Below, piece after piece: positions 10,935 through 64,000 of a stretch of DNA of 64,000 bases; the stretch's first letter is position 1; the number at the start of each line of letters is the position of its first letter. The stretch spans positions 576,001-640,000 of the forward strand of contig AL929603.2 of the NCBI GenBank assembly GCA_000002445.1. Direction: 5' to 3'. Made by a program: the position numbers and the translations under genes. This DNA is from Trypanosoma brucei. Its lineage: Eukaryota. Below the pieces are notes generated by a model. That model had not been told where the DNA came from. It saw nothing but the letters and a program-made list of their open reading frames with translations, and did not search any database.

Positions 10935-11625
10935 AATTCAATGCCTACACCAAGCAAGAAAGCAAGAAGATCGGAAACTCGGGGAAAATACACAAAAACG
11001 CCCCCATTTTAGGTAATATTATCCGGGACGCGACAGTGAAAGCTGTCCCCCGCGGCTCCTTTTTCCAAAAGCCTTTGTGAACGAAGGAGTTAACAGAGAG
11101 AGATGAGAAGATACGATGCGTCCAACATCTTCGAGAGAGGCCATCTCTTGTCTCCCAGCGAAAAAAACTGCTAATGGAAGTCTCCACCAAACGATGGCAT
11201 GAGACTTGCAACAAGTTTGCAGTTTCTGAGAGTAACAGTTGGCATATCGTAAAGAATGTTTTCTCACAAAAAACCCTAGTCACACCAGCAGTGAGGGCAG
11301 ACAACAGAATCCTGGCGCAGAAGCAGCACGCACAGAGTCTCATAGATATATACCCTGAATAGTCGAAGCGGCACCCGGATGTTGCGCAAGCTCCTTCGAT
11401 TTCCCTCCCAAAACAGATGCCATACAGGCGTATCTCCATGGGAGAATTGAACACAACCCTAAGGTATATACCAAATGGTTCTGCTCCTGGAAACAATATG
11501 CAGTGGATTGAGAGGCTCTCAAGCACCTCAACAAATATGGAAGGCGTTTACTACCACGATTATTCAATCGCAGTTTATACGCTGGTGAGGATCCGCAACC
11601 GTGGAAAAAAGGTGTCATCATTCCA

Positions 11626-12545
11626 TTGTTGAAAGTGGGAAAGCCATCCATTGACCTAGCATCCTTCAGGCCTGTTACCTTAACAAGTACGGTCTTAAAG
11701 GTCATGGAAAAGATTGTCTGCGCAAGGATCCGTAACACTGTCGAATCGAAATTGAAAGTGCAGCAATCAGGATTCAGCACGGGTAACTCTACACTAGACC
11801 AGCTCTTACACCTAATGGCAGCTCTATGTAGACCTCACCACGATGACAGGAAAGGGGCTGTATTTGCTTATTACCCGGAGGCATTCGACACGGTAGATCA
11901 TGCAACAGCGGTTCGTGCCATGCAGGAAATGGGAATACCAACTTACACTGTGAAATGGACCGCTACCTTACTACAGGGAAGAAAAAAACAAGTAAGGGTA
12001 AAGAAGGTGTTTTCGGGGAACAGGGAGTTCACACGAGGGGTTCCACAAGGTACAGTCCTAGGTCCCCTCTTATCATAGTGGTGAACTCTCTCAGTAAACG
12101 CCTCAACCAAATTCCTGGTCTAGGACATGGCTTCTTCGCAGACGATCTAACTCTCTCATGTCGTCACTCTGATAGAAACATAGTCCAGGAAACGCTCCAA
12201 GCAGGGCTAAACGCAGTAGCAGCATGGAGCCGAGAGACTTATATGGGCATTAATGTGGATAAGACCAAATACACACTATTTGGCGCCAAGAACAGAAACT
12301 CACTACTTCTGTTGGTGAACGGGAAACCTATCGATGAAGATAGAAATCCCAAGATACTTGGCATCACATTACAGTCATATAGTGGTTTCTCCACCCATGT
12401 CGAGGGGGTTAAAAAGGCAGTGGATATGCGACTACTGCAACTTGCTGCAATCTCATCAACTTCTTGGGGACCACGAACCAACACGATCAGGACGTTCTAC
12501 ATTGCCCTGACTCGTGCAAAGATCTTGTACGGCGTGGCGATTTAG
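11626..12545 (+). pseudogene. ingi A reverse-transcriptase segments, two overlapping frames
   Basis: RT-like sequence: FRPVTLTSTVLKVMEKIVCARI...; ...FADDLTLSC... (YxDD-like); LVNGKPIDEDRNPKILGI. The reading frame shifts near 11955-12078. Confidence 0.7.
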
Positions 12546-13028
12546 TATCATAATGCCAACTACTTCAATCAGGAAGAGCTAGAGTGTTCCCAAAACAGAG
12601 CGTGCAGAATTCTCTCCGGAACGGTGAGAGGTTGAAACAGTACAGACGCGCGCCTAGAGGCCAACTTAACGTCCCTTAGAGAAGCCGCGACGATACGGGG
12701 TCTGAAGTACCTGATACGCTGCCAGCCACGAGATAGATACCTAAAAGAGAGTGCGGAGTTAGTATATCACCCAAGTTATCCTGTCCGAAAGTTACTGAAT
12801 GATGTAAAGCGTGAATACCCACAACTTCAGGTAGAATCCGCACACACCACAGAGTGGTGTCCATATTTCTGGATACAGCGAACAGATGTCTGTTTCACTA
12901 CGCCATTCCCCCGAATGTGAACAGAGACTCGGAGGAAGAACTCAAACGTGAGACATCCGAAAGATGGATAAAGCGCCGTTATTAGAAGAAAAGGGCAATA
13001 ACCCTGTCGCTCTATCACACTACGAAGT

Positions 13029-13310
13029 GTGGACAGACGGATCTGTAACACTGGAGGAAAATCAGGAGCGGCAGCTCTCATCGTCAAGAATGGCAAACTC
13101 CTGCACAAAGTGCTCGAAGGAACGGGACGACTTGCATGCAGCTATAGAGCTGAATGTGTAGTCCTAATAATTGGCCTGAAACAACTGTCCAAAGAGATCG
13201 ATAAAGCAGAAAAACAAAACTTCCGATTATTGATATTTACGGACTCATGGTCAATGGTAGCAGCTCTGCACGCGGGCCCGCTTACAGTTACAGACACAGT
13301 ACTGCGCTAA
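13029..13310 (+). pseudogene. ingi A RNase H-like segment
   Basis: The sequence TDGSVT...AAALIVKNGKLL...RAECVVLIIGLKQL...FTDSWSMVAAL matches the RNase H fold pattern. Confidence 0.65.
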
Positions 13311-13728
13311 ATATGGACACTACTCATCCAACTCCAAAGTAAAGGAGGACGGATTCGTATTCAGTTCATATTTGGTCACTGTGGAATAGCGGGTAATGAG
13401 CAAGCTGACGCAGCAGAGCAACCACAAATGCGAACTGCATGGATACCGGAGGTGGTTGCAGCAGCGAAAAGGCTGCTGCGCACTACAAGGGAAAAGCCAC
13501 AAACACATAGGGCCACACTTACTGGACACTGGAAGAACACAAACCTCAAGACCTCGCTGTCCAGAAAAGAATAAACCCTACTGACTCAACTCCGCACGGG
13601 TGCAGCACCTACGTACGGTTGGGTGAACAGGAAATTGAACCCTAATATCCCCAACACATGCAGATGGTGTTGCAATGTGGCAAAAAGCCAGACAGTGGAG
13701 CTCGTGAGTGTGAGACCAACATCCACAC

Positions 13729-14085
13729 GTGCAAGCGATCCAACAGTTTGCCCAATTTGTGGGCTGCGATGCTCGAACCGGCAAAATGGCGCTATACACA
13801 TGCAACGAACCCATGGAGTCCAATACGAGCAGGGCAAACGGCGACTCAAATTCCCGCGAGGAGATGGAGGAGGATTCCAATTTGGCCCTCCCACCTCCCG
13901 AACCGCCGCCAAACACAGAAACACCGCAAACCGCTGCGGATACTATTATGTATCCCTGCTTGATCTGCGAGAGGACCTTCAAATCGAAGACTTGGCAAAC
14001 AAGGCACAGAGAGACCGCACACCCGGGTGTAGCACCACCGCGCGGAACAACAGAAAACCCAGAGGGAAGTGAACAAACAACATAA
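13729..14085 (+). pseudogene. ingi A C-terminal C2H2 zinc-finger segment
   Basis: YPCLICERTFKSKTWQTRHRETAHPG is a C2H2 finger. Confidence 0.7.
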
Positions 14086-14568
14086 TCGGAGAACACTCTT
14101 CAGTGTGCCCTGTGTTCTTTTGTACACAAGTCCAAGGGTGGATTAACAAACCACCGAAGAGTCCAGCACCCAGATCAAAAGGTCACGATAGCAACCAGGA
14201 AGAGCGGAAGGGATTCGGCGAATCGACGGGAAGTAGAGGAGGAGGAACCATCAGCTACCTCGCTCCATTGTACATGCTGCGATTTCATAGAGAAATCAAA
14301 GAGTGGGTTAGCTGCGCACTGTAGGTATAGGCACCTCCAAACAGTCTAGTCTATCACTACAGTTTCAAAAAAGAGACCAAGGACCCCCACTCCAGAGAAT
14401 AGATCGCAGAAAGTACGGACGGAAAGAGTCGAAGGAAGATATCAGTGTGATCACTGCGAGAAGACATACGCCACACCATCCACTCTAATACGCCACTACA
14501 GGGCGAAAAATAGTGGAAGCGTATGTCAGCTCTCTAGCACCGAGGCAGCTCCGGCAGGACGACGATAC

Positions 14569-15000
14569 GTGAAGGTTACAGTGCCGACGCATGAGTGTAC
14601 CGAGTGCGGCACCAAGTGCTACTCAAAAGCAGGACTAACGCGTCATCAACAAACTGCACATGGTTTGAAGCTGGAAACCCCTCTCCCCCAGATGCATGAA
14701 TGCGAAGAGTCACCTAGGCACCTACTCGTGTACCCAGGACTCGCTACACTGCGTCAACGATTCTTCAAGGATGACACACCTCTCGAAAAGTTGCTGTACA
14801 GTGAAGAGTTAACAAAATTCCTACTGGAACTGGAAAAACTCTCACAAAAGGTACCGCCAGAAAGTAAAGGCCGAACGCCGGATATCGAATCAGCTGACCC
14901 TCGTAGTGATTGCCCTCCGTCTAGGAGATATCAAACTTCTGTCTCCCCCCCCCCTGTCGGATCGCGTGGGAAGCGGAAACGCTCACCATTTCCTCGATGA
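14569..15000 (+). pseudogene. ingi A second C2H2 zinc-finger segment
   Basis: HECTECGTKCYSKAGLTRHQQTAHG is a C2H2 finger. It lies in a different frame from the preceding segment. Confidence 0.65.
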
Positions 15001-15168
15001 GCCCCTGTGTACACAGTTAGTCTCCCCCGTCCATATTAAGACGGAGCCTGGGTCTCGTCAGCCCAGAAACTCTCCCCCCTTCACCACAAAGCAGGCACCA
15101 ACGTTCGAATAGGACTGCTGGTGGTACGCTGCCAAATATCTCTTTGAGATAATTGCGCGTTATATTAA

Positions 15169-15181
15169 AAAAACATGATGC
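15169..15181. repeat. 3' target-site duplication of ingi A (AAAAACATGATGC), merged with the element poly(A)
   Basis: Identical to 9938-9950. Confidence 0.8.
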
Positions 15182-16185
15182 CCCTGCACCCGCAGCAGAT
15201 TCCCTCAAAGAGCTGACGGTTGCAGGGGCTTGGCTTCCCCCGCATAGGCGAGGTACTGGACCCTGGTACCACGATGAGGTGGCCGGCTGAGCCAGGGTGC
15301 GGAAGCCAAGGGCCTGCGACACCCGAAAGGGCTAACAAGCTTAGGTTTCTACTTGTTGGGAAAACGGATAGTGGAAACCACCCTAGTGGTTGGTTGGTCG
15401 CTCGCACTGTGCGCTACAGTACTGCGGATGCAGAGATTGGACCTTGCAAGGGTTTAATTTCGCACGATTGCAAGCTTCTGCTGTTACTGTGTGGATACTT
15501 TGAGCGCAATCCTGGACCCCTCCGGTTTGTGCAGCAGAACGTTAACGGTGTCTCAGCAGTAAAGCTATCAAGCCTACTTGCTCTAGATGCAGACGTCTAT
15601 CTTCTTCCGGAGGTGAAGAAGTTGCGTGAGGCGTCTCGCATCTGTAAGGTCCCGCCATACACAGTTTACTGTAGCCCCCCGAACGCTCGGGGTGGAAGAG
15701 TTGCCATCTTGGTGCACCAACGAAGCAGCATCCAGACCAGGAGTGTGACATGGAAAGCACTCCCAAACGACACTGGCATCAAAGCCGTAACTGTGAAATT
15801 GTGATAGGTAATACTCATCTGGGTATAGTGAATGTTTACATCCCCCCACCACCGAGCATCACTGGATCCTTCGCTACCCTTCTGCAGACCTTGGAAAATA
15901 ACTGCTCTATTATTGAGGGAAACTTCAATGTTTTCCACCCACTATGGTGGAGCGAGGTCGGTCAATAAAACAGGTCGGACAAGTTCTTTTACCTGTCCAC
16001 CTATGCATATTCGAACTGCAAAACATCCTTGACGCGGTAACACGAAGCTAAGGCAATCAGAAAAGCGCCCTGGACCTCACCCCGTCTCGTTTGGATGATG
16101 CAATGCAACGGACCACGCTATTGTAGCTAGACAGCGATCACAAAGGGATCACATTTATGCTCGAAAAAGCATGCGAAATGATTAT
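15182..16185 (+). mobile_element. second ingi-type element, a 5' fragment of about 1 kb with an inverted 5' terminus; its 3' limit is approximate
   Basis: Positions 15185-15297 are the reverse complement of an ingi 5' end (Pr77). From 15298 the sequence continues in forward ingi orientation, starting near element nt 55. The ORF at 15220-15968 encodes a 2A-like ...ERNPGP motif followed by the AP-endonuclease N-terminus (LRFVQQNVNGVS...DADVYLLPEV). Confidence 0.75.
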
Positions 16186-34029: not shown

Positions 34030-36033
34030 ATGGAAGTACGCGATGTGAATACACATGGCGGAGGCCATACGGCAGGTGGAAGGCCTGCCATCATAAAGCG
34101 GGACGAGCAGTCCAGGGCCATTCCCTCTTCATCCACCGTAACTAACGAGCCCGCGACGCGCGTCAAGCCGGAGCGGCAGTCAAATGCCACGCAAACGGAG
34201 GCGGACATGTATGTGCCAAGTGTTTACCATGATGTGAACAATACAGTGGAACTGCAACGACCTGCAAGCGCTCCACCATTGAGTTACGCGGAGTGCCCGT
34301 GTGCGGCGTGTGCTCAACAACTCTCTTCCTACCCCGCAGCAGCTCCGATGCGGAGGCCCCCGACGAGCCCCTACGGAACAATCACCACGCAACAATATAA
34401 CACATATGCTGCGCCTCAAACACCACTGCAGTCGCACCAAAGTAGAAACCTATCTGTGCATCCGCAACAACGGACAACTGCTGCGGCAACGGCAACAGCA
34501 ACAGCGCCCCCGGTGCCGACCCTCTCGCGACCCGCCCCATCAACAAGCGGCGACTATGGTCATTACCAGCAGGAGCCGCATTACCCACCACAGCAGAAGG
34601 AACAACCGCAACAACATCAATATCCGCGCCATAATGTCATTCAGCATCAGCCCTATCAGCTGTACGCGCAACCGCGCCCCTCACAACAGCCACCCCCGAG
34701 CCAAGCGCCGATATATAGTAAAGCAGTGACGGCTCCAACGGCACTTGATGTCCATCCCCTCATTGATACCACCAGCGAGTTTCTTCGTAAATGTGCTGGG
34801 CGTGTGGTGGAACTGGCCTGCACGCCGGACGGTCGCTCGATGTTGATTAACGCCTTGTCCTCGCAGGATGCCGCTTTAGTGGATACCATGGTGAGGGAAA
34901 TCGCTGATGACTTGGAAAGGGTAGCACTTGATGTGCATGGCTGCCACGTGCTTCGTGCGCTGCAGAGCTACGCGAGCGCTGAGCACACGAGAATTCTTGT
35001 TTCATGCTTCACGGAGACACTAGTGCTGAACCTCTGTACGGCGACGCAGCACACCCGACACATCCTTGAGTCTCTTTTTCAGCGTCGGTTAATTGACCTC
35101 CAACCGATTATTGATGTGCTCGCCTCGCACTCGCGGTACCTTGCCGCCACGCAGCAGGGATGCATCTCTTTCATGCACATATTGGAATTCTGCAACGAAG
35201 CCCAAAAGAAGCAACTAATTTCCCCATTGGTACCGTACTTCGCCCATGTTGCCTTGGATCCGTTTGGAAACTACGTCGTGCAACGTATCATTCAGAGTAT
35301 TGGCCTTGACGCGTCGGAATACATTACATCGTGCTTCGCTGGGGAGCTGCTTAATATGAGCTGCAACAAGTTTGGCAGTAATGTCGTAGAAGAAACTATA
35401 AAGGTTTGTGGTGGGGTCCCGGCTGTACGAAGGCTCCTGATGGAAGAGCTGATCAGTAAGCCCGGTGCCTTGCAGCGTCTCGTGCAGGACAGTTTCGGGA
35501 ACTTTGTGGTGCAAACCTTCATTGGGAGTATCACCGACCAAAATGAATTGAAGTACGTCAACGAACGCCTTCGTCCGGTATTGCAGAACAGTCCGTACGC
35601 CGCCCGCATTGAGACGAGACTTCGCACTGCCCTTACAGCTGCATCCAAGAGAAACAGCCAGGCAAGTGCTCACTGTCAGCAACGCCAACCTCATCCCAAT
35701 CGCTGCTCGCAACATTATCCCACACACCCCGGTACGCCAACTCAATTGGCAGCCGATGCACCGCCGTGTTTTGCCCCTCCCTCATCATCATTTGCTCATG
35801 TTGCCACAACTGCCGCCTCCCATCATCAGCCGCGGCAACAGCCACAACAACAGCAGCAGCAGCAGCAGCAATTCATGAGCCCTCGCTATCAACCCCCACC
35901 ATGCAACAAAGCGGCCTTTCCGCAGCGTCAGCAAAATAGGCGGCAGAGCCATTCTCAACCGAGGCGACAGCCACAACAACAACATCATCATCAGCATCAG
36001 CAACAGGTTGATTGTGATGACGGAGAATGTTAG
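34030..36033 (+). CDS. PUF9: Pumilio/PUF-family RNA-binding protein (667 aa), probably PUF9 by synteny
   Basis: It contains several Pumilio repeat signatures (FGNYVVQRIIQ, KFGSNVVEETI, SFGNFVVQTFI, HGCHVLRALQ). The N- and C-termini are Q/P-rich and low-complexity. The PUF9 name rests only on the recalled chromosome-1 gene order (coatomer beta ... PUF9 ... PF16). The family call is firm; the paralogue number is an inference. Confidence 0.8.
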   Translation: MEVRDVNTHGGGHTAGGRPAIIKRDEQSRAIPSSSTVTNEPATRVKPERQSNATQTEADMYVPSVYHDVNNTVELQRPASAPPLSYAECPCAACAQQLSSYPAAAPMRRPPTSPYGTITTQQYNTYAAPQTPLQSHQSRNLSVHPQQRTTAAATATATAPPVPTLSRPAPSTSGDYGHYQQEPHYPPQQKEQPQQHQYPRHNVIQHQPYQLYAQPRPSQQPPPSQAPIYSKAVTAPTALDVHPLIDTTSEFLRKCAGRVVELACTPDGRSMLINALSSQDAALVDTMVREIADDLERVALDVHGCHVLRALQSYASAEHTRILVSCFTETLVLNLCTATQHTRHILESLFQRRLIDLQPIIDVLASHSRYLAATQQGCISFMHILEFCNEAQKKQLISPLVPYFAHVALDPFGNYVVQRIIQSIGLDASEYITSCFAGELLNMSCNKFGSNVVEETIKVCGGVPAVRRLLMEELISKPGALQRLVQDSFGNFVVQTFIGSITDQNELKYVNERLRPVLQNSPYAARIETRLRTALTAASKRNSQASAHCQQRQPHPNRCSQHYPTHPGTPTQLAADAPPCFAPPSSSFAHVATTAASHHQPRQQPQQQQQQQQQFMSPRYQPPPCNKAAFPQRQQNRRQSHSQPRRQPQQQHHHQHQQQVDCDDGEC

Positions 36034-36059
36034 TGGAATCCGTTCCCACACCTTCACTC

Positions 36060-39000
36060 ATCCTCGTCTGTCTGCTCCTTTGATGTGAGGTCAGTTTGGT
36101 TTGGTTTTGGTTTTGAGTGAATGAGTGGAGGGCCGGCCGAGGCGGCGGCTCATCGCAATCTGCAATTATGTATAATTATATATATATATTTATATTTATA
36201 TATTTATATATAATCGTGTACTTATGTACTTTTATACATGTATGTGTGCATATATTTTTATATATATACACATATTTACGTATTCTTATTTATGTAAACT
36301 TTACTTGTGACTATATATATATATATATATATGTGTTATACACGTCTACATTGCCGTGTCGGTATTTTCCCTCTCATTCGGAAGGGGGATGCTCTCGCGT
36401 CATTGCTGCGGTCTTCATATGCCACTTTTATTATTATTACTACTACTGTTATTATTATATGTGTTTCACACGTGTACATTAATGTATTTCTACATTTGTA
36501 TATATATATATATATACATACATATATGTATGTATGTATGTGTGTGTGTGTGTGTGTTGACATTCTTTTTTGGATGGGGTTGCTTTAAAAGAATCTTTAC
36601 CGTTTTGTTTTGACTTTCGTGTTATTGAAGTGGGGGAGCCAAAAAGAAAAAAAGGAGGAGGAAGGGGAAGAGGAAAGGGAAGCGAAGGAGAAAAGAACCG
36701 CAAGAAATGGAAAAGATAAATAAATGAATAAAACGAGGAAATTTAGATGAGGAGTGGTGAAAGAGTTGAGAAAAGGGAAACTATGGCGGTTTAATTTCAA
36801 TTGGTGCGCTTTGCACATTCATTTCGGATATTCGCCTCCTACCTTTTATTTTGGGTTTTTTTTATCTTTCTTTTTTCTCCTCCCCCCCCCCCCCCCTCCT
36901 TCGTTCTTTCATTTTTGTGCCGCGTAATCTATTTCCTTATTCTTCTCTTATCATTGTGTGGCTCTTCCTTCACTTTCTTAGCAACTGTGCCTCTTTTGCT
37001 CTCCCAAATCCTTCAACCTGAACATATAAACTTACTCATTTTTTTTTTTTAGTTTTCCTCATTTTATTTTATTTTTCGTTTAGCCTTTTAGGTTTTTTAT
37101 TTTATTTTTGAGGCGAGCTGAGCCTGTGGGCTTCTCTCTCCTCATCGTCTATTTATTTCATTTTTTTTTTTTTGTGTGTGTGTCCAATTGTTTGTTTGTT
37201 TGTTTTGACTTCTGGCTCGTTGTTGTTGTTGTCATTTTTGTTTTTGTTTTTAGAGATATTCCACATGCGCTTAGTCATGCCTTCTTTTCTTCTTTTTTTT
37301 TTCGCCTTAATTTCACTATAAATGCTTTTGTGGTGTAGTTTTATGTTATTTTCAGAAACCTCTTTTTTTATTTTCCCTTTAGTTTTATTTGTTTTCCTCC
37401 TCCGTTCCGTGCAACTTTAGATTTCACACACAAATACACAAGTAATTATATATATATTTATTTATTTATATTCATTTATTCTGCTATTTACTTATGTGAT
37501 CGTTTATATATTATATAAATAATATATATTACGTGTGGGGGAACAAAATTTAAAAAAAAAAGAAGAGAAGGGAAGAGAAGAGAAGAGAAGGATTTTAAAT
37601 AAATAAATTTATTAAGAAGAGGTGGAGAAAATTTAATGATAATCAAAAAGAAAAGAGTAAAGGTATTGACGAGTGTGCTTCAGAACGAAAAGGGAAACAA
37701 AAACAAAATAGTTAACTAACTAATTAATTAATTAATTGTACAAAAAGATAAAAGATAAATAAGTAAGAAGTAAGTCGTGTTCGGGTTGTTCTTCTTATCA
37801 GTTTTTGTTACCATTTTTATTATTATTATTGTTGTTATTATATATATATATATATATATTTATATATTTTTTTTTTGATCTTACCTTTACTTTTCAATTT
37901 CACGAATGAAGAAAAGAAAAGAAAAAGAAAAGTTACACGGCTTCCATTCTATTTAGCGACTAGATTACATGCACACACACTTTCATTTTTTTTTTCCACA
38001 CACACACACACAGACCTGTATTTAATTTTATATCACTTCTCGGTGTTTTGTTTTTTGTTTTTGTTTTGTTTTTACGGTTGTTGGTTTGTGCGTCCTTTTG
38101 CTTTTTGTGTTTTTCTTTTTTTTTTCTTTTTTTCTTTTATATAATCGACAGCTCAAATAAAATTATATCATAAAATATATATTATATATATTATAATATA
38201 AGAAAAGGATGGGCATTTTCAACCATCAACAATTGATGGGCCCTTCATTTCAGTTCTCTTCTCTTCTGAAGAGGTTTTTTGTTGTTTTTTTGTTTTTTTT
38301 TGTTTTTTGTTTTGGGGTTTTGCAAATAAAATAAATAAATATATAATTAAGTTAAACAAATATATTCGAATATTTGAATGTTTGTTCGTTTGTTTTAGAA
38401 TTACTTTAACAAATTTTTTTTCTTCCTTTTTTTTTTTCCTGCTGCGCGGTTCTCTTTTTTTTTTTTTTTTGTTTCTTGTTGTTGTTGTTGGTATTTTTGT
38501 TTTTTTGCTTTTGTGCGTGTTTTCAACAACAACAAAAAAAACTTTCTGTCATTTATACGCATTTGGTCGCTGTTGATTATATTTTTGTTTTTTGGTTATT
38601 TTATGAATGATGTCGGAAGGAATAGTTTTCAAAAGGACAAAATTAAATCAAATTTAATTGGCGTTTTTTTTTCTTTTTTTTTTCCTTTCCCCCCCCCCCC
38701 CCGCCTTAACAAGAAAGAAAGAAAGGAAAAAAAGTATGAAGGGAAAATGAAGTTGAAGATGAAAAATGAAACAACAGATAATAATAATATTATTAATAAT
38801 AATAACAACAAAGGGGGAAAAGAGAAGGAAGTAAATAAATAAATACGGAAAAATAAATAATTTTTAAAATGGAGTGATTGAGTTATTATTGGATTTTGGT
38901 GGTGGTAAGAAGGAAGGAAAAGGAAGGAATGTGTCATGTATATTATTAGAATGTTTCAATGAGAAAAGAAAAGGAGGGGAGGGGAGGGGAGGAAATATTA

Positions 39001-40590
39001 ATATATAAATATTTATTAATTAATATATTTGTATAAGGGGAGATATGAAATATGAAATGTGGTAAGAAATAAATAAGAATACGAAAAGGAAAAGGAAAAG
39101 AAAAAAAAAGGAAACACGTTTCAAATAAATTTTAGTTCGATACATTCCGTCGAGCTCATTTCATTTATGCATCAAACTCTTTTCCATCTTCCATTGTTTC
39201 ATATTATTATTTTTTTCCCCTCTTCCCCCGTGTCTTTTCTCTCCTCTTTCCACCACGCGTAGGCGTCACCTCAACTCTTATGCGCATGTTTTGAAATTAA
39301 ATTAAATTAATTTGATTTGATTTGATTTGATTTTTCAAAAAGAAAAAAAAGAAAAGAAGTGATCCCCTGGGAGGGGCGCAACGCTGTGCAATCGCGTATT
39401 CGTGTCTCTGAAATTCCCTTTTTGTTTGTTTGTTTGTTTGTTTGTTTGTTTTTATTTGAAAAGGTAATAGTAAAAAAAAGAAAATAAACAAGCAAGCAAA
39501 TAAATAAATAAAGGGAATTTTTATTTTTTTAAAAAAAAAAAAGAGGAAAGGAAAGGAAAGGAAAACGAAATAAACGTGTATTTTTTCTTTTCTTTTCTTC
39601 TCTTTTTTTGGTATTACAAATAATATGATCATGTTGCGCCGTCCCCGTTTGTGTGCTGCTTATGCATGATGATGATGATGATGATGTTTTGTTTTTGTTT
39701 TTGTTTTTGTTTTCAGTTGTTGTTGTTGTTGTTGTTCTTTTTATTGTTTCATCTTTTTCTTTTTTTTTCCTTCTTTTCCATTACTTCTTGTTGAAGAAAT
39801 TAATTGTTTTTTGTTTTTGTTTTTTGTTTTTTGTTTGTTTTTTGTTTTTTGGATGTTTGCTTCTGTGCTTTTTTTTCCTCTTTTTGGAATGTTCCCGTCA
39901 CTCGTCAGTTTTCCAACTGCATTACTGAAAAGAGGCGGGAACATTCCAAAAAGAGGGAGAAATGAAGAGAAGAGAAGAGGGATTTTGTGAATCCCAAACA
40001 AGAGAAAGGAGAGAGAAAAGATATACAATAAACCACTTGCAAATGCAAATGCAAATGTAAAAAAAAATGATTGAATTAAATTAATAAGTTATATATGTAT
40101 CTGATTTAAATTGGTTTAAATTGACAAAAGAAAAAAACGTTCCCTTCTTTTTTTTCCTCTTTTTTTTCTCTTTTTTTATTTCTTTTTTTTTATTTTATTG
40201 GTTATACATCAGTATGGGGAAATATAAAACCAAGTAAAAGACACATATTAGTTATCATAGTAAATACACGCCATAAAAAAAAAAAAGTGGGGGAGAATAA
40301 CCTCGAACATCCCTTCGAAGTTGGCTAAGTTCAAAAACAAAAACAAAAAGGAAGGGGGTCACCCATACATATTTGTATTCATTAAACAAACGCAAAGAAA
40401 AGGAAAAAAAGAAAGATAGAAAAGAATAAAACAAAAGAGAAATATATATATATATATACGTACACATATAGAAGTAAGGAAGGAAAAAAAGAAAGAAAGA
40501 ATTTTTATAAAATAAGGGAAAGAGGAATAAAAAGAAGCAATAAATATTACTTTTGAAAAAGATATCTATCTATCTGATATATATATATAT
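36060..40590. repeat. AT-rich, low-complexity region of about 4.5 kb with no gene; it contains many simple-sequence tracts, including (TA)n, (ATTTG)n, (GTTT)n, poly-C 15-16 and poly-T
   Basis: No ORF here has non-repetitive amino-acid composition. Homopolymer and oligo repeats are seen directly, for example C15 at 36885-36899, C16 at 38687-38702, (ATTTG)5 at 39310-39333 and (GTTT)8 at 39419-39450. Confidence 0.8.
39877..39956. other. perfect 21-bp inverted repeat (CCTCTTTTTGGAATGTTCCCG / CGGGAACATTCCAAAAAGAGG) separated by 38 nt; a hairpin-forming element
   Basis: The arms at 39877-39897 and 39936-39956 are exact reverse complements. Confidence 0.85.
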
Positions 40591-58815: not shown

Positions 58816-60027
58816 ATGTCGGTCAGTTCCCCGCTCGCCAGCAGCGGTGAGAGGGAGCAATATGGCCCGCAGGAACAGCGGCAATATGGATTCGTTCCCG
58901 TTCAAATGACAAATTTAGTTCCCGTACGCGTGGTCAGTGTGCACGGCGACTTTTTCGATATGGAAATACATCAGGACGCACCGCTGCATATAGTTCAGAG
59001 AGCAGCTGAGGACTGCTTTAAGGTCCGCCCTGAGTTGCAGTTACTGACGCACAACCGGAAGCCAATAAACCCCAATCAGTCTCTGAGGCGCAATGGTTGT
59101 CTGCTATTGAAAGGCGATCCGTTTGTCAAAATTGTGCTTGATGTGAAGAAGGGGTCAAGGCTAAACATTGTCTGCCAAATGGCCCACTGCGAACCCATAC
59201 CGCTCGCTTGCGAGGCTGAAGACACGATTTGGGATGTCAAAAAGAAGTTCTGCTCATCTTTAGAAAAGTCGGAGGTCACACCGCAGCGCATTCGCCTGTT
59301 GTGGCGCTACTGGGAGCTGAACGATAAGGCCACAGTTGACTATTACCACATCCCCACCAATTCAAAACTGACTGTGATGAAGAAACGGGACATCTTAGGG
59401 GGACAACAAACAGAAAGACGCAGGGCGCCCTCACAGAGACGGAGACAAGATGTCCAGAGACGTCACGAACGCTGCGACGCCGATACCGATGATGTGGCAG
59501 CGTGGCCGAAAGCACCATCAGTTGTTCCACCATACGAAAAGTATAGACAAGCATCCGGCCGTGAACCGCTGGAAGGCGAAGATAATCGCTCAAAAACGCC
59601 AAATGCGAATGGTAGCGCCCAAGTGGTGGAAGGTGGGGCGGATCGGGACAGCCATCATCCCCCAATTCGGGCGTGGCCCGCCTTGCCCCAAGAGCAATTT
59701 GGCCGGGCTGTAATTCCTCTTTATCCGATAGTCCCGCCCCTCTCCGGAGGAAGTTATTATAGAGAGCCTCGCGCACAAACGCCCGACAGGCGACCCGCCG
59801 TAGTGCCGGTGGCAGAGGCAACACAAGTTGTGGATTTTACCGAGGTTCAACGCCTGAGGATGGAGGTGGAGGAGTTAGGACGGCGTATGGAGACCTGCGT
59901 CACAGATCGGGCGGAGTTTTCGGCGATGGAGGAATCATTCCGCGCCGCTGTGACGCGAGTGTCGGAATTGGAGGCATCCGTTGGCCGGGTTCAGAACCTA
60001 CTGAAACGAGCGCTTCACTTGATGTGA
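58816..60027 (+). CDS. hypothetical protein (403 aa) with two N-terminal ubiquitin-like-looking segments and a C-terminal coiled coil
   Basis: Two segments have UBL-like hydrophobic periodicity (VRVVSVHGDFFDMEIHQDAPLHIVQRAAE...; LNIVCQMAHCEPIPLACEAEDTIWDVKKKF...). The C-terminus reads RLRMEVEELGRRMETC...VSELEASVGRVQNLL. Confidence 0.5.
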   Translation: MSVSSPLASSGEREQYGPQEQRQYGFVPVQMTNLVPVRVVSVHGDFFDMEIHQDAPLHIVQRAAEDCFKVRPELQLLTHNRKPINPNQSLRRNGCLLLKGDPFVKIVLDVKKGSRLNIVCQMAHCEPIPLACEAEDTIWDVKKKFCSSLEKSEVTPQRIRLLWRYWELNDKATVDYYHIPTNSKLTVMKKRDILGGQQTERRRAPSQRRRQDVQRRHERCDADTDDVAAWPKAPSVVPPYEKYRQASGREPLEGEDNRSKTPNANGSAQVVEGGADRDSHHPPIRAWPALPQEQFGRAVIPLYPIVPPLSGGSYYREPRAQTPDRRPAVVPVAEATQVVDFTEVQRLRMEVEELGRRMETCVTDRAEFSAMEESFRAAVTRVSELEASVGRVQNLLKRALHLM

Positions 60028-60504
60028 AGAGGGTATAACACGGTGTGTGGGTCTTGTGTTTTTCGTGGTGGGAGCACTGTGTTTGTAATGTGTATATTCC
60101 TGTTTCGTCACGTGTGTTTTACACGGAGATGAAGGAAGCATGACGCTGCGACTCTGCAAGTTTTGCTTAAGAGCACATATCACACACTCGAGGGTGTTGT
60201 GGGTCTGAGCGATTGAAGGGAGGGGAATAAAGTGGAGGGCAGCGGTCAGTCACGCTGCACGAGATCCCTGTTTCTCACATTCCTCTTCATCTGTGCCGTT
60301 CTTTCACTTCTGTCACCGACGGCCGCCGTTTGCCCATACCCCCCCCCCTCCCAATCCCTTTATTGTCCCTTCCTGAATATTACCAAACGCTGTGAAGCGG
60401 CGATTAGGATAGTAATACATGGTGTTGGATGATTGTACATCTGGGACTGGATCTCGAGTATCAGTTGTTCTACAGGTTTAGTGCATGTCGGACACGTAAA
60501 TGCG

Positions 60505-60505
<1 letters not shown>

Positions 60506-60538
<33 letters not shown>
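60506..60538. repeat. (CA)16 microsatellite
   Basis: A direct CA dinucleotide run. Confidence 0.95.
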
Positions 60539-60541
<3 letters not shown>

Positions 60542-61374
60542 CACGGATACACCATTCCATGACGACGGCGGACACGTGACCTCCGTACAACAGGAAAGTG
60601 AATGGTCGGGAACTCGGTCGCTTAAAGTGGAACGACCAAGATGCCGGTGGGGGATGCAGTTAGTTTAAGGGAAAAAAATCTGTTACCGCGTAGGCTCTTC
60701 AGCAGTTAGCTCCGACTGCCCCACAGTTGCCACGCACGCCTGATTGCGGTGCCAGTGTGAACTGGGTTGTCTTTCCGGTGCCAGTAAAGGCAGAGCAAAC
60801 AGCAGTGACTCGCACCCGCTACTGCAAGAGCAAAAACTGGCACGTTTAGGTGACGTTGCGTTGCATCATCTCAAAACATGTTTCCACCACTTGCGGGAAG
60901 GTCCAGCAACCTCAGTTACAAAATTTTGCCGCGCGGCGAACTGGCACGCACACGTACAGCAGGGGTTTTTGCATCTCACCGGTGGAATTTCTGCCCCTCC
61001 ATGAAAGGATAGACAAAAAAAAGGAGGATCTCTCAAATGTCATGGCGCGGAGTCTTATGAGGAAGCGAAAATTAGAGGAAAACGGTTTAGCGAGCCTCTC
61101 CACGGGGACACCGTGCGTATGTTACAAAACAAGCTTTGGCGCGTTTACACACCACCCGCTGTAAGATGGCTATGGAGTGCGGACTTGGGAAAGACGGACT
61201 CACAGAATCCGTAGGAATGGACTGAAGGGAGGGGGGCGATGGAACAGCCAGAAAACAAGTCACAAGCGTGTCAACTTTTACCTAGCGACCCACACTGATT
61301 TCCCTCATCTGCCTTTGAGGTCGGAGCCCGCGAAAGTGATGGATGGGAAACACATCCTTAAGCGAGTAAGGAAT

Positions 61375-61662
61375 AAAGAATGTCTCCTGCAGTTTCGGTG
61401 TGTATGGGCGTTTCGTGGCATAAGAGTCAGTTCGCGAATGCCTGTGCGGAAGCCCAACGAATACGACCCTACTACGCAGCTGCCTCAGCGCATGAACTGG
61501 TATCATGGCAACTGCCACGCGGTGGAAGAGGATTAAAGGCCTAAACAATTTGAGAGTGCTTTGTTAATATAAACAACGGGTAAAAATGTGATAACACTTG
61601 GCAGCATGCCATCAGCAGTATCATCCGCACTAATCTGCTGCTGGCCGGTGATGTGGAAGAGA
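61375..61662. repeat. left arm of an inverted repeat of about 290 bp
   Basis: It is the reverse complement of 63556-63845. The minus-strand ORF at 61282-61548 has the same translation as the + strand ORF at 63675-63857. Confidence 0.8.
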
Positions 61663-61989
61663 GGGGAAGGCAGGGGGTGTTGTCTCCAGTGAAGGAGAGG
61701 TCCATCACGTTGCTTACCCGATTTGCTTTCGGAAACGTGGCCGCATCTGTGCTTGCTTCCGTCTCGCTCCCTCAGTGGCGAGGGGTCCTTGTCTCTTCCC
61801 TAATGCTACCGCGATGTCTCGAGTTCTGTGCTCTTGCTTGTGGTGCGTTGTGGATTCGCCCCTCGATTTCGTTGTGTGATCACATTCCCGATTTTTGGGT
61901 GGAAGTTGTGTCCTTCTGTCTTTCCGAACTCCGGACGCTTCTCTTCCCTTCTTCAAATGCACTATTGCACTCATTGGGTACAGTTGCCG

Positions 61990-63420
61990 TGGAGTTACAT
62001 TCGGGTGCCGGACTCTTCGGTGGTTTGTTAATCCACCCTTGGACTTGGGTACAAAAGAACACAGGGCACACTGAAGAGTGTTCTCCGATTCTGTTGTTTG
62101 TTCACTTCCCTCTGGGTTTTCTGTTGTTCCGCGCGGTGGTGCTACACCCGAGTGTGCGGTCTCTCTGTGCCTTGTTTGCCAAGTCTTCGATTTGAAGGTC
62201 CTCTCGCAGATCAAGCAGGGATACATAATAGTATCCGCAGCGGTTTGCGGTGTTTCTGTGTTTGGCGGCGGTTCGGGAGGTGGGAGGGCCAAATTGGAAT
62301 CCTCCTCCATCTCCTCGCGGGAATTCGAGTCGCCGTTTGCCCTGCTCGTATGGCACTCCATGGGTTCGTTGCATGTGTATAGCGCCATTTTGCCGGTCCG
62401 AGCATCGCAGCCCACAAATTGGGCAAACTGTTGGATCGCTTGCACGTGTGGATGTTGGTCTCACACTCACGAGCTCCACTGTCTGGCTTTTTGCCACATT
62501 GCACCACCATTTCCATGTGTTGGGGATATTAGGGTTCAATTTCCTGTCCAACCCACCCGTACGTAGGTGATGCACCCGTGCGGAGTTGAGTGAGTAGGGT
62601 TTATTCCTTTCTGGACAGCGAGGTCTTGAGGTTTGTGTTCTTCCAGTGTCCAGTAAGTGTGGCCCTATGTGTTTGTGGCTTTTCCCTTGTAGTGCGCAGC
62701 AGCCTTTTCGCTGCTGCAACCACATCCGGTATCCATGCAGTTCGCATTTGTGGTTGCTCTGCTGTGTCAGCTTGCTCATTACCCGCTATTCCACAGTGAC
62801 CAAATATGAACTGAATACGAATCCGTCCTCCTTTACTTTGGAGTTGGATGAGTAGTGTCCATATTTAGCGCAGTACTGTGTCCGTAACTGTAAGCGGGCC
62901 CGTGTGCAGAGCTGCTACCATTGACCATGAGTCCGTAAATATCAATAATCGGAAGTTTTGTTTTTCTGCTTTATCGATCTCTTTGGACAGTTGTTTCAGG
63001 CCAATTATTAGGACTACACATTCAGCTCTATAGCTGCATGCAAGTCGTCCCGTTCCTTCGAGCACTTTGTGCAGGAGTTTGCCATTCTTGACGATGAGAG
63101 CTGCCGCTCCTGATTTTCCTCCAGTGTTACAGATCCGTCTGTCCACACTTCGTAGTGTGATAGAACGACAGGGTTATTGCCCTTTTCTTCTAATAACGGC
63201 GCTTTATCCATCTTTCGGATGTCTCACGTTTGAGTTCTTCCTCCGAGTCTCTCTTCACATTCGGGGGAATGGCGTAGTGAAACAGACATCTGTTCGCTGT
63301 ATCCAGAAATATGGACACCACTCTGTGGTGTATGCGGATTCTACCTGAAGTTGTGGGTATTCTTTCTTCACATTAAGTAGAAGTTGACGAACAGGACGAG
63401 TGGGGTTATACACCAGCGTT
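61990..63420 (-). mobile_element. internal ingi-type retroposon fragment (RNase H plus C2H2 zinc-finger region), both ends truncated; limits approximate
   Basis: The minus-strand ORFs at 62865-63146 (RNase H) and 61714-62445 (zinc fingers) are about 98% identical to ingi A at 13029-13310 and 13729-14085. Homology ends near the ingi A equivalents of about 14170 on the left and about 12800 on the right. Confidence 0.8.
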
Positions 63421-63555
63421 GAGCTCTCATTTAGGGCACCCCCACTGGATCCGCAGCATAATAGGTAGACTACTCCTCGGAGTGTTGCCTCTTCACGTAA
63501 TCTCTCCTTGAGTTTGCCCAGCGCAGTTCCACCGCGCCCCGCTCAACGACGGGCC

Positions 63556-63845
63556 AATATTCTCTTCCACATCACCGGCCAGCAGCAGATTAGTGCGGAT
63601 GATACTGCTGATGGCATGCTGCCAAGTGTTATCACATTTTTACCCGTTGTTTATATTAACAAAGCACTCTCAAATTGTTTAGGCCTTTAATCCTCTTCCA
63701 CCGCGTGGCAGTTGCCATGATACCAGTTCATGCGCTGAGGCAGCTGCGTAGTAGGGTCGTATTCGTTGGGCTTCCGCACAGGCATTCGCGAACTGACTCT
63801 TATGCCACGAAACGCCCATACACACCGAAACTGCAGGAGACATTC
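63556..63845. repeat. right arm of the inverted repeat of about 290 bp
   Basis: It is the reverse complement of 61375-61662. Confidence 0.8.
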
Positions 63846-64000
63846 TGTTGCTGCTAGCCCCACGGTGGATGATGGGCCATCTCACACTCCCACAACTGTG
63901 CCTTAATGTACAACACGGAAAGTACAGCAAGAAGACGCAGCGGCCACCAACTCTTTCGCAACGTTGCGTAACCACGTTGATATCCTCTCGGATCAGCAGA

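What the first reader, a model, noticed from the sequence alone, without database searches (positions are those of the whole stretch)
61375..63845. Ingi fragment on the opposite strand, bracketed by inverted repeats of about 290 bp
The only minus-strand coding material in the window is a roughly 1.4-kb internal ingi fragment with no 5' Pr77 end and no 3' end. It sits between two arms, 61375-61662 and 63556-63845, that are exact reverse complements of each other. The arms do not match the ingi sequence in this window. The region would form a large foldback (stem-loop) structure. It looks like a product of palindrome-mediated rearrangement or an inverted duplication that captured a retroposon piece. 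It may also be the edge of a retrotransposon-hot-spot-type locus that continues beyond the window.
Basis: seen in the sequence. Interest (0 to 1): 0.55.

Follow-up and report, generated by a model that had tools for sequence, protein, structure and literature searches.

The report
Invertible retroposon relic between inverted repeats
A broken retroposon copy sits where two gene clusters converge on Trypanosoma brucei chromosome 1, bracketed by two identical 286-base inverted repeats that recombine: the repeats stay identical within each genome and the 1.9-kb piece between them lies in opposite orientations in different strains.

Summary
Arms 61377-61662 and 63561-63846 are 286 nt and 100% complementary, 1898 nt apart. 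They enclose a minus-strand ingi-like fragment. The same structure occurs in four independent T. brucei-group assemblies, so it is not an artefact.

The interpretation needs correcting in four ways.
1. This is not the edge of an RHS locus. It lies in the convergent strand-switch region between Tb927.1.2770 (TZP46) and the minus-strand pteridine-transporter array Tb927.1.2820-2880.
2. The arms are not wholly foreign to the retroposon. Their inner 67 nt, plus the next 63 nt, encode the 2A-like peptide and endonuclease start of a degenerate ingi-related element. The outer ~217 nt remain unassigned.
3. The insert is a mosaic. A 1.36-kb tract 98% identical to ingi lies inside old, diverged retroposon sequence.
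4. The arms recombine. Twelve inter-strain differences are shared by both arms. The spacer has one orientation in TREU927 and IVM-t1 and the opposite one in DAL972 and OVI, and orientation does not follow haplotype.

Transcripts of either strand would form a 286-bp hairpin. The literature marks this region as a DCL2-dependent siRNA source carrying H3.V and base J. The link between hairpin and siRNAs is inferred, not shown. Verdict: a new member of a known kind, of moderate interest.

The parts
61377..61662 (.). Left arm of the inverted repeat (286 nt)
   Evidence: 100% complementary to 63561-63846. Present in IVM-t1, DAL972 and OVI. The OVI contig L001 breaks 32 nt into it.
63561..63846 (.). 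Right arm of the inverted repeat (286 nt)
   Evidence: Both arms share 12 differences against the DAL972/IVM-t1 arms.
61596..61662 (+). Inner 67 nt of the left arm. Retroposon-derived and sense on the + strand. Codes for the first part of a 2A-like peptide.
   Evidence: 89.6% identical to the DIRE-like element L008 at 6178-6244. 73% identical to window ingi 10142-10193.
63498..63627 (-). Start of the old retroposon. Encodes the 2A-like peptide AISSIIRTNLLLAGDVEENIGP followed by the endonuclease start (RWNCAGQ), then a stop codon. Spans the inner end of the right arm and the first 63 nt of the spacer.
   Evidence: Translation. blastp against the window ingi ORF gives E=1e-13. 84.8% over 132 nt to L008 (E=1e-32) and 65% to the window ingi. 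2A-like sequences lie just upstream of the endonuclease domain in ingi/L1Tc (PMC3708506).
63361..63497 (-). Diverged ingi-like stretch, about ingi nt 2725-2865. It follows an internal deletion of ~2.4 kb that removed most of the endonuclease domain and all of the RT domain.
   Evidence: 58% nt identity, collinear with the window ingi. tblastx gives 62% over 16 aa.
62003..63360 (-). Tract nearly identical to modern ingi (ingi nt ~2865-4221; RNase H region and two C2H2 fingers). Likely a gene-conversion patch.
   Evidence: 98.2% identity to window 12815-14171. Identity drops sharply at both ends. Weak zf-C2H2 Pfam hits. 60.6% to the RNase H region of L008.
61663..62002 (-). 340-bp segment with no nucleotide match to ingi. 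It continues the same reading frame and holds a degenerate C2H2 finger (61828-61890). Probably the old element's diverged continuation.
   Evidence: No blastn hit. In-frame match to the zinc-finger ORF of L008: tblastx 5e-4 and blastp 9e-4. This homology is weak.
61282..61506 (-). Annotated ORF Tb927.1.2780 (74 aa, hypothetical). It overlaps the outer part of the left arm and is probably not a real gene.
   Evidence: Exact match to P0025, 'hypothetical protein TB927.1.2780'. Tb427.01.2780 is flagged H3.V yes / base J yes in PMC4721609.
63778..63916 (.). 139-nt unit (outer 69 nt of the right arm plus 70 nt of right flank). It recurs as a direct repeat at each boundary of the ~4.0-kb pteridine-transporter tandem unit.
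   Evidence: L002 20386-20507, L006 18956 onward and L007 4605-4743.
58816..60027 (+). Tb927.1.2770 (TZP46), the last plus-strand gene before the strand switch. Given for context.
   Evidence: Identical to P0016, the TREU927 protein XP_001218976.1. TZP46 is described with two ubiquitin-like domains and a coiled coil (bioRxiv 10.64898/2026.09.23.753794).

Best explanation
SHOWN.
- The window is T. brucei TREU927 chromosome 1.
- The feature lies in the convergent strand-switch region between the last plus-strand gene (Tb927.1.2770/TZP46) and the minus-strand pteridine-transporter array (Tb927.1.2820/2850/2880).
- It is the relic of a degenerate ingi-related (DIRE-like) retroposon. The relic is 5'-truncated just before its 2A-like peptide. 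It has lost ~2.4 kb internally, including the reverse transcriptase. It has no 3' end.
- A 1.36-kb stretch of the relic is 98% identical to modern ingi. It lies between old sequence that is 58-65% identical or recognisable only at protein level.
- The first 69 nt of the relic plus 217 nt of adjoining unassigned DNA occur twice, in inverted orientation, as the 286-nt arms.
- The arms exchange sequence. Within each genome they are 98.95-100% identical, while 12 differences between genomes are shared by both arms.
- The 1.9-kb spacer is in one orientation in TREU927 and T. b. equiperdum IVM-t1. It is in the opposite orientation in T. b. gambiense DAL972 and T. equiperdum OVI. Orientation does not follow sequence haplotype.

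INFERRED.
- Homologous recombination between the arms causes both the concerted evolution and recurrent inversion (flip-flop) of the spacer.
- The ingi-identical patch was written in by ectopic gene conversion from an active ingi.
- Polymerase II running in from either gene cluster would make RNA that folds into a 286-bp perfect hairpin carrying ingi sequence in its loop. That hairpin would be a substrate for the nuclear Dicer DCL2. This probably contributes to the unusually high, DCL2-dependent siRNA yield reported for this strand-switch region.
- I regard the locus as a recombinationally active relic whose siRNA output is a by-product, not a selected device.
For: Identity of the window and locus:
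- ORF 61282-61506 equals Tb927.1.2780, and the 403-aa gene equals the TREU927 protein.
- TZP46 description matches.
- A BT1 gene lies on the minus strand ~5.25 kb downstream in L002, L006 and L007.
- The three pteridine transporters cluster on chromosome 1 (PMC5114424).

Inverted repeat.

Retroposon origin of the inner arm and spacer start.

Mosaic identity profile.

Conservation and concerted evolution:
- Arm divergence between genomes is 4.5-4.9%, against 0.7-1.9% in the neighbouring sequence.
- The same 12 substitutions are in both arms.

Inversion:
- In DAL972 the left arm abuts the 125-bp end and the right arm abuts the 340-bp end. There are no Ns in 21 kb.
- The OVI contig joins the 340-bp end to the right arm and right flank. 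It is 99.85-100% identical to TREU927 and has no Ns there.
- IVM-t1 (chromosome-level record) has the TREU927 orientation but the DAL972 haplotype.

Hairpin: the minimum-free-energy folds of both strands keep all 286 cognate pairs, and the duplex energy is about -600 kcal/mol.

Literature context:
- CTU1 at chr1 636000-642000 gave 28,345 AGO1-bound small RNAs, the second highest of the convergent units listed. Reads stay at 94% of wild type in dcl1-/- and fall to 3.4% in dcl2-/- (PMC3447711).
- The chr1 convergent region 636387-642042 gave 69 RPM small RNA, against 3.7-6.7 RPM at the three other non-subtelomeric chr1 regions in that table (PMC4721609 S2).
- cSSR 1.4 at 635-637 kb shows dual-strand transcription.
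- Tb427.01.2780 is flagged H3.V yes and base J yes.
Against: - I could not map small-RNA reads, so nothing shows that the published siRNAs come from the arms rather than from plain convergent transcription.
- The match between the window and coordinates 636-642 kb rests on gene IDs, gene order and region width (5.25 vs 5.66 kb). It does not rest on a direct coordinate look-up.
- The OVI orientation rests on one contig of a draft assembly that had to traverse a 286-nt repeat. If it is wrong, a single inversion on the DAL972 branch explains the data and 'recurrent' is not shown.
- The homology of the 340-bp segment is weak (E about 1e-3).
- The outer 217 nt of the arms are unassigned. Their resemblance to Pr77 is marginal (p 0.0007-0.03 by shuffles, 0.3% of genomic controls). 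They have no match to the 5' regions of ingi or the DIRE-like element.
- How the inverted duplication first arose is unknown.
Confidence: 0.7

Rival explanations
1. The palindrome is an assembly artefact, such as a collapsed repeat or a chimeric fold-back clone.
For: Perfect palindromes are a classic cloning and assembly artefact. A draft OVI contig ends at the arm.
Against: The same arms, at the same boundaries, occur in the window (TREU927), in DAL972, in IVM-t1 and in OVI, which are independent assemblies. There are no Ns across the structure.
Confidence: 0.02
2. The locus is the edge of an RHS (retrotransposon hot spot) region, and the arms are RHS-derived.
For: ingi and RIME often sit in RHS genes. 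The feature is at the window edge.
Against: Sequence to the right in three genomes is a BT1/pteridine-transporter array (Pfam E=2e-115), with no RHS-like ORF called there. The arms have no further copies in the 12-21-kb loci fetched, apart from the 69-nt outer piece in the BT1 units. The OVI assembler read through the arm but broke at the ingi tract, so the arm is low-copy.
Confidence: 0.02
3. Two related retroposons inserted independently, tail to tail, at neighbouring sites. Deletions and gene conversion then left two identical 5' ends. On this view the whole arm is a degenerate retroposon 5' end that includes a decayed Pr77.
For: Arm nt 36-78 aligns with Pr77 nt 23-66 at about the expected distance from the arm's outer end. 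Shuffle tests give p = 0.0007-0.03, and 0.27% of genomic control segments score as well. The inner 67 nt are clearly retroposon.
Against: The 5' regions of ingi and the DIRE-like element are ~70% alike over 320 nt. Arm nt 1-217 matches neither. Stricter scoring gives p = 0.06-0.25. The outer 69 nt belong to a 139-nt unit that extends 70 nt beyond the arm and recurs in the BT1 array. That suggests local intergenic DNA rather than a retroposon end.
Confidence: 0.12
4. The module is a selected device. It could be a hairpin siRNA generator that silences ingi/DIRE in trans. It could also be a structural element of polymerase II termination at this strand switch, kept perfect by selection.
For: The arms are perfect or near-perfect in four genomes. 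The location is a termination region marked by H3.V and base J, with high DCL2-dependent siRNA output. The authors of PMC3447711 speculated about selection on the other long inverted repeats.
Against: Arm identity is explained by gene conversion alone. Most of the arm (217 nt) is not retroposon sequence. The 67 retroposon nt are only 65-73% identical to the ingi in the window, which is too low for efficient trans silencing of that copy. ingi siRNAs are already over half of all small RNAs. Other convergent regions terminate without such a module.
Confidence: 0.15
5. The opposite orientations are assembly choices, not biology. The arms homogenise but the spacer does not invert.
For: Orientation across a repeat is a known weak point. 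DAL972 contigs were ordered against TREU927. OVI is a draft.
Against: 286 nt is shorter than a typical Sanger read (my own knowledge of the technology). Both DAL972 junctions are clean and gap-free. A reference-guided build would favour the TREU927 orientation, not the opposite. Two assemblies independently show orientation B.
Confidence: 0.1

Closest known systems
Long inverted repeats IR1-IR7 of T. brucei (Tschudi et al. 2012, PMC3447711)
   Same: They are pairs of essentially identical inverted repeats separated by a spacer in the TREU927 core genome. All are sources of AGO1-bound siRNAs, several of them DCL2-dependent. Their arm identity was noted as puzzlingly high.
   Different: This one is 286 nt, below the smallest listed (422 nt). 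It is on chromosome 1, where none is listed. It is partly retroposon-derived. Here the spacer is shown to be inverted between strains and the arms to evolve in concert. No small-RNA mapping specific to this repeat is available to me.
ingi and DIRE (degenerate ingi/L1Tc-related element) retroposons of trypanosomes
   Same: It has the 2A-like peptide immediately before the endonuclease start, an RNase H region and C2H2 fingers. 1.36 kb is 98% identical to ingi. The 2A/endonuclease start is 85% identical to a degenerate element on DAL972 chromosome 2.
   Different: There is no canonical Pr77, no reverse transcriptase, no 3' end or poly(A), and no target-site duplication. It is a rearranged mosaic fragment, not an element copy.
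Convergent strand-switch regions as siRNA loci and termination sites (PMC3447711; PMC4721609)
   Same: Same genomic setting. The region is listed as CTU1 / cSSR 1.4, with dual-strand transcription, H3.V and base J.
   Different: Published accounts attribute the dsRNA to overlapping convergent transcription. An intramolecular hairpin from this repeat is not mentioned in the papers I read.
Inverted-repeat-mediated inversion polymorphisms, such as the plastid large inverted repeat flip-flop and the human Xq28 FLNA-EMD inversion (from my own knowledge, not tested here)
   Same: Recombination between inverted repeats inverts the intervening segment and homogenises the arms. Both orientations segregate among lineages.
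   Different: The scale is much smaller (286-nt arms, 1.9-kb spacer). No genes are inverted, only a retroposon relic. Within-clone switching has not been shown.
Transposon-derived hairpin silencers, such as maize Mu killer and Drosophila hpRNA loci (from my own knowledge, not tested here)
   Same: An inverted duplication includes the 5' part of a mobile element. Read-through transcription would give a long hairpin that Dicer can process.
   Different: Only 67 of the 286 stem nucleotides are retroposon sequence. No evidence of trans silencing exists.

Membership tests
ingi (Tbingi) retroposon copy | Conserved 77-79-nt 5' signature (Pr77) | tested here: inconclusive
   There is no blastn match to the two Pr77 copies in the window. 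A weak collinear similarity of arm nt 36-78 gives p = 0.0007-0.03 with mild scoring and 0.06-0.25 with strict scoring.
ingi (Tbingi) retroposon copy | 2A-like peptide directly upstream of the AP-endonuclease domain | tested here: met
   AISSIIRTNLLLAGDVEENIGP is followed by RWNCAGQ. blastp against the window ingi ORF gives E=1e-13. The motif is degenerate (NIGP instead of NPGP) and a stop codon follows soon after.
ingi (Tbingi) retroposon copy | Reverse transcriptase domain | tested here: not met
   The homology jumps from about ingi nt 306 to about nt 2725. No RVT Pfam hit was found among the eight ORFs scanned. In the DIRE-like comparator, RVT_1 lies at element nt ~1750-2390.
ingi (Tbingi) retroposon copy | RNase H / C2H2 zinc-finger C-terminal region | tested here: met
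   98.2% identity to ingi nt 2865-4221. Weak zf-C2H2 hits. Match to the RNase H region of L008.
ingi (Tbingi) retroposon copy | 3' end with poly(A) and flanking target-site duplication | tested here: not met
   Homology stops at ingi nt 4221. No ingi 3' sequence occurs anywhere in 61000-64000. The full ingi at 9951-~15170 shows a poly(A) and a duplicated AAAAACATGATG for comparison.
DIRE (degenerate ingi/L1Tc-related element) | Degenerate, frame-shifted element related to ingi mainly at protein level | tested here: met
   The old parts are 58-65% identical to ingi and carry stops. They are 85% identical over 132 nt to a degenerate multi-ORF element on DAL972 chromosome 2, whose endonuclease is 46-50% identical to ingi. 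I had no curated DIRE reference, so 'DIRE-like' is by resemblance.
T. brucei long inverted-repeat siRNA loci (IR1-IR7) | Near-identical inverted arms with a spacer in the core genome | tested here: met
   286 nt, 100% identical, 1898-nt spacer. It is shorter than the smallest published member (422 nt).
T. brucei long inverted-repeat siRNA loci (IR1-IR7) | AGO1-bound siRNAs map to the arms and spacer | not testable with these tools
   Only region-level counts exist for the enclosing strand-switch region. No read data are available here.
RHS locus | RHS gene or pseudogene at or next to the insertion | tested here: not met
   The flanks are TZP46 and a BT1 transporter array. There are no RHS-like ORFs.
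Repeat-mediated invertible segment | Both orientations exist, with breakpoints inside the arms | tested here: met
   TREU927 and IVM-t1 have one orientation; DAL972 and OVI have the other. The junction sequences are exactly swapped. Within-strain switching was not tested.

The most novel reading that the evidence does not exclude
The module is a flip-flop switch built from a retroposon relic at a polymerase II termination site. Recombination between the arms repeatedly inverts the ingi-bearing spacer. That changes which strand of ingi sequence each converging gene cluster transcribes. Meanwhile the 286-bp hairpin seeds DCL2-dependent siRNAs that act on ingi/DIRE transcripts or on local chromatin (H3.V, base J). 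On this reading the arms are kept perfect because the hairpin is useful, as has been speculated for the other long inverted repeats of T. brucei.
Probability: 0.12. Interest if true: 0.65.

Novelty: new member of a known kind. Interest (0 to 1): 0.4.

Why it matters
T. brucei has a handful of near-perfect long inverted repeats that make siRNAs, and nobody knows why they stay perfect. This smaller, unlisted example gives a concrete answer for one case. The arms recombine with each other, which both homogenises them and flips the DNA between them.

It also offers a simple explanation for why one particular convergent strand-switch region (chr1, about 636-642 kb) yields far more DCL2-dependent siRNA than most. 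That explanation can be tested with existing small-RNA and long-read data. It shows as well that retroposon relics in the core genome are still being rewritten by conversion from active ingi copies.

For users of the reference genomes, it flags a 1.9-kb segment whose orientation differs between assemblies. It also flags an annotated 'gene' (Tb927.1.2780) that is just the edge of a repeat arm.

Tried and rejected
- Exact-protein look-ups of five window ORFs from the locus (arm, spacer and the 74-aa Tb927.1.2780 ORF) plus the nearby 539-aa lipase-like gene found nothing. TREU927 DNA itself was never returned, so I could not read TREU927 coordinates directly.
- A homologue search with the 45-aa arm-encoded peptide found no candidates.
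- Hall et al. 2003 (the chromosome I paper) is not held.
- A test of the whole arm as a retroposon 5' end gave only marginal Pr77 similarity. There was no match of arm nt 1-217 to the ingi or DIRE-like 5' regions or to any other fetched DNA. I therefore dropped my intermediate idea that the arm is a complete degenerate 5' end.
- No Rfam family and no tRNA occur in 58-64 kb. Pfam finds nothing in the arm ORFs.
- I first read the RBP33 table entry 'antisense within TU' for the BT1 genes as evidence of antisense transcripts. It is only a positional class, so I do not use it as such.
- Twin priming during retrotransposition was considered for the origin of the arms. It was rejected because it inverts an internal segment and does not duplicate a 5' junction together with flanking DNA. 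This is reasoning from what I know of L1 biology.
- The bacterial promoter/terminator scan was not used, because it does not apply to trypanosomes.
Full report
**1. The observation**

The repeat finder on 60000-64000 reports one strong inverted pair, 61377-61662 and 63561-63846. The arms are 286 nt and 100% complementary, with 1898 nt between them. blastn of 61000-64000 against the whole window confirms this. It also shows that the only other match is 62003-63435 against 14171-12740, the full-length ingi of this window, in the opposite orientation (96.4%). A perfect 286-nt inverted repeat is far beyond chance.

**2. Where this is**

The window carries the following features:
- alpha/beta-tubulin repeats
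- an ingi at 9951-~15170
- seven 1.58-kb histone repeats
- coatomer beta and a PUF protein
- only plus-strand genes

Three results identify it as T. brucei brucei TREU927 chromosome 1:
- The 403-aa ORF 58816-60027 is identical to the TREU927 protein XP_001218976.1.
- That ORF fits the description of TZP46 = Tb927.1.2770, which has two ubiquitin-like domains and a coiled coil.
- The minus-strand ORF 61282-61506, which overlaps the left arm, is exactly 'hypothetical protein TB927.1.2780'.

Related loci show what lies to the right of the window. I fetched them through exact-protein look-ups:
- L002: T. b. equiperdum IVM-t1, CM010672.1
- L006: T. b. gambiense DAL972, FN554964.1
- L007: T. equiperdum OVI

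About 1.4 kb beyond the right arm there is a 652-aa BT1 transporter gene on the minus strand. It is repeated with a period of ~4.0 kb (Pfam E=2e-115). This is the pteridine-transporter cluster Tb927.1.2820/2850/2880 (PMC5114424).

The feature therefore sits in the middle of a convergent strand-switch region. It is ~1.35 kb past the TZP46 stop codon and ~1.4 kb past the stop of the last BT1 gene. It is not the edge of an RHS locus.

**3. What the arms and the insert are**

*Start of the retroposon.* Reading the minus strand inward from the right arm, the last ~67 nt of the arm and the next 63 nt encode NTWQHAISSIIRTNLLLAGDVEENIGPSLSGARWNCAGQTQGEIT, followed by a stop. This aligns with the N-terminus of the window's ingi ORF (22/42 identical, E=1e-13; DNA alignment). 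It is the 2A-like peptide that in ingi and L1Tc lies immediately upstream of the endonuclease domain (PMC3708506).

At DNA level this 130-nt stretch is only 65% identical to the ingi in the window. It is 85% identical (E=1e-32) to a degenerate, multi-ORF, Pr77-bearing element on DAL972 chromosome 2 (L008). The endonuclease of that element is 46-50% identical to ingi's. I call this 'DIRE-like' by resemblance, because I had no curated DIRE reference.

*Deletion and mosaic.* After the stop codon the homology jumps to about ingi nt 2725. About 2.4 kb, including the reverse transcriptase, is missing. The identity profile along the fragment is sharply stepped:

| Window coordinates | Identity to the window's ingi |
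|---|---|
| 63361-63500 | 58% |
| 62003-63360 (1358 nt) | 98.2% |
| below 62003 | none detectable at nucleotide level |

*The 340-bp segment.* The remaining 340 bp (61663-62002) continue the same reading frame. They contain a degenerate C2H2 finger at roughly the position expected for ingi's third finger. This finger matches, in frame, a finger in the L008 element (tblastx 5e-4, blastp 9e-4). That homology is weak.

Taken together, the pattern is old - new - old. I read it as an old element with an internal patch overwritten by ectopic gene conversion from a modern ingi. That reading is an inference.

*The outer arm.* The outer ~217 nt of each arm match nothing: not the 5' regions of ingi or L008, and not any other fetched DNA. 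Those two 5' regions are ~70% alike over 320 nt. A faint, collinear Pr77-like similarity (arm nt 36-78) gives p = 0.0007-0.03 with mild scoring and 0.06-0.25 with strict scoring. I leave this part unassigned.

The outermost 69 nt, together with 70 nt of right flank, form a 139-nt unit that recurs at each BT1 repeat boundary. This suggests that the outer arm is local intergenic DNA. If so, the duplication that made the arms spanned a junction between flank and retroposon.

*Copy number.* The OVI assembler read straight through the arm and the 340-bp segment but broke 49 nt into the ingi-identical tract. The arm is therefore low-copy and is not an ordinary ingi/RIME end.

**4. The structure is conserved, homogenised and invertible**

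| Genome | Arms compared with each other | Arm haplotype | Spacer orientation |
|---|---|---|---|
| TREU927 (window) | 100% | 1 | A |
| T. equiperdum OVI | only the right arm assembled; 100% to TREU927 | 1 | B |
| T. b. equiperdum IVM-t1 | 98.95% (3 mismatches) | 2 | A |
| T. b. gambiense DAL972 | 100% | 2 | B |

*Concerted evolution.* Between TREU927 and the other two complete loci, the arms differ at 13-14 positions (4.5-4.9%). Neighbouring sequence differs by 0.7-1.9%. Twelve of these differences are present in both arms of each genome, and ten fall within arm nt 230-270, the 2A-coding part. Relative to the DIRE-like element, each haplotype carries its own set of changes. This fits short ectopic conversions from dispersed retroposon copies that are then copied from arm to arm.

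*Inversion.* In orientation A the left arm is followed by the 340-bp end of the spacer (GGGGAAGGCAGG...). In orientation B it is followed by the 125-bp end (AATATTGGCCC...). In DAL972 the whole spacer is the reverse complement of the TREU927 spacer, with breakpoints inside the arms and no Ns in 21 kb.

The OVI contig CZPT02001561.1 joins the 340-bp end to the right arm and right flank, which is orientation B. Yet it is 99.85-100% identical to TREU927 there and has no Ns. The other OVI contig stops 32 nt into the left arm. IVM-t1, a chromosome-level record (CM010672.1), has orientation A but the DAL972-like sequence haplotype.

All four combinations of haplotype and orientation therefore occur. 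If all assemblies are right, this needs at least two inversion events. If the OVI contig is set aside, one inversion is still required.

The DAL972 genome paper mentions only two large inversions on chromosome 10, not this one (PMC2854126).

**5. How it most likely works**

*Shown.* The anatomy, the conservation, the shared arm substitutions and the two orientations.

*Inferred.* Homologous recombination between the arms produces both the homogenisation (non-crossover conversion) and the inversion (crossover).

*Hairpin.* RNA from either strand across 61377-63846 is predicted to keep all 286 cognate arm pairs (duplex about -600 kcal/mol). Any polymerase II that runs past the last poly(A) site of either converging cluster would therefore make a long perfect hairpin.

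*Published data that fit a dsRNA source here:*
- Tschudi et al. list CTU1 (chr1 636000-642000) with 28,345 AGO1-bound small RNAs. This is second highest among the convergent units listed. Reads are unaffected in dcl1-/- (94%) and nearly abolished in dcl2-/- (3.4%).
- Bulk ingi/RHS reads rise from 52% to 70% of annotated reads in dcl2-/-. The CTU1 reads are therefore unlikely to be mere multi-mapping ingi reads. This step is my inference.
- Reynolds et al. list a chr1 convergent region at 636387-642042 with 69 RPM small RNA. The three other non-subtelomeric chr1 regions in that table give 3.7-6.7 RPM.
- The same paper shows dual-strand transcription at 'cSSR 1.4, 635-637 kb'. It flags Tb427.01.2780, the ORF on the left arm, as lying in H3.V- and base-J-marked chromatin.

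*How firm the coordinate link is.* The match between the window and these coordinates rests on gene IDs, gene order and region width (5.25 kb against 5.66 kb). I estimate it at about 90% likely to be correct.

*What is not shown.* The seven long inverted repeats catalogued by Tschudi et al. range from 422 to 10,011 bp, and none is on chromosome 1. This one was below their range. Whether the siRNAs come from the hairpin has not been tested.

**6. Rivals**

- Assembly artefact: excluded by four assemblies.
- RHS edge: excluded by the extension to the right.
- Two independent tail-to-tail insertions, later homogenised: possible only if the whole arm is a decayed retroposon 5' end, for which support is marginal.
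- A selected hairpin or terminator device: cannot be excluded, but it is not needed. Gene conversion alone keeps arms identical, and only 67 of the 286 stem nucleotides are retroposon sequence.
- Orientation differences as assembly choices: unlikely for 286-nt arms read with Sanger or long-read technology (my own knowledge of the technologies), but only spanning reads can settle it.

The origin of the inverted duplication is unresolved. One model is an inversion produced by staggered breaks, which would duplicate the 286 nt at one breakpoint. That model comes from my own knowledge of work in Drosophila and is untested here. It would explain why the arm spans a flank-retroposon junction.

**7. 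Comparison with what is known, and novelty**

The locus works like the published long inverted repeats of T. brucei and like repeat-mediated invertible segments elsewhere. It contains pieces of ingi and of a DIRE-like element, but it is not a member copy of either. It fails the tests for reverse transcriptase, 3' end and target-site duplication, and the Pr77 test is inconclusive.

It is best filed as a new, small, retroposon-derived member of the T. brucei inverted-repeat / strand-switch siRNA loci. The added observations are concerted evolution of the arms and inversion of the spacer between strains. Interest is moderate. The locus is ordinary in kind, but it gives a directly testable explanation for one siRNA hot spot and for how such repeats stay perfect.

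Noticed in passing
window 9951-15297: The full-length ingi (9951-~15170) truncates the last beta-tubulin copy at about codon 300. It ends in poly(A) and is flanked by a duplicated AAAAACATGATG. Directly after it, at 15203-15297, a second Pr77-type retroposon 5' end lies on the minus strand. It is 84% complementary to the ingi's own Pr77 (repeat I4). The rest of beta-tubulin does not follow. The tubulin array therefore ends in nested retroposon insertions.
   Followed up: partly
window 63778-63916; L006 14953-21212; L002 16387-20507; L007 4605-4743: A 139-nt unit (outer 69 nt of the arm plus 70 nt of flank) recurs at every boundary of the ~4.0-kb pteridine-transporter repeat. In OVI it also appears as a partial copy beyond the collapsed array. 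This is an A-B-A-B-A layout, which implies unequal crossing-over between pre-existing direct repeats. It also implies that the outer arm sequence predates the array expansion.
   Followed up: partly
window 36001-40000: GC content drops markedly to 0.29-0.32, against ~0.5 elsewhere. The drop lies just downstream of the PUF-domain gene (34030-36033), and no ORF of 150 aa or more is listed there.
   Followed up: no
window 61282-61506 and 63869 onward: Two annotated 'hypothetical' ORFs are probably not genes. Tb927.1.2780 (74 aa) is simply the outer edge of the left arm. The 92-aa 'unlikely' ORF starting at 63869 is repeated once per BT1 unit (three TREU927 accessions).
   Followed up: partly
window ~60480-60520: A (TG)n/(CA)n dinucleotide run lies in the region downstream of TZP46. 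It appears as VCVCVCVC / THTHTHTH in the ORF translations.
   Followed up: no
L008 5993-10435 (DAL972 chromosome 2, FN554965.1 78335-90946, reversed): A degenerate ingi-related element has an intact Pr77 and an almost canonical 2A (GDVEENPGP). Its ORFs are broken (endonuclease, RVT_1, RNase H, C2H2) and annotated as 'hypothetical, unlikely'. It is the closest relative found for the old part of the chromosome 1 relic.
   Followed up: partly
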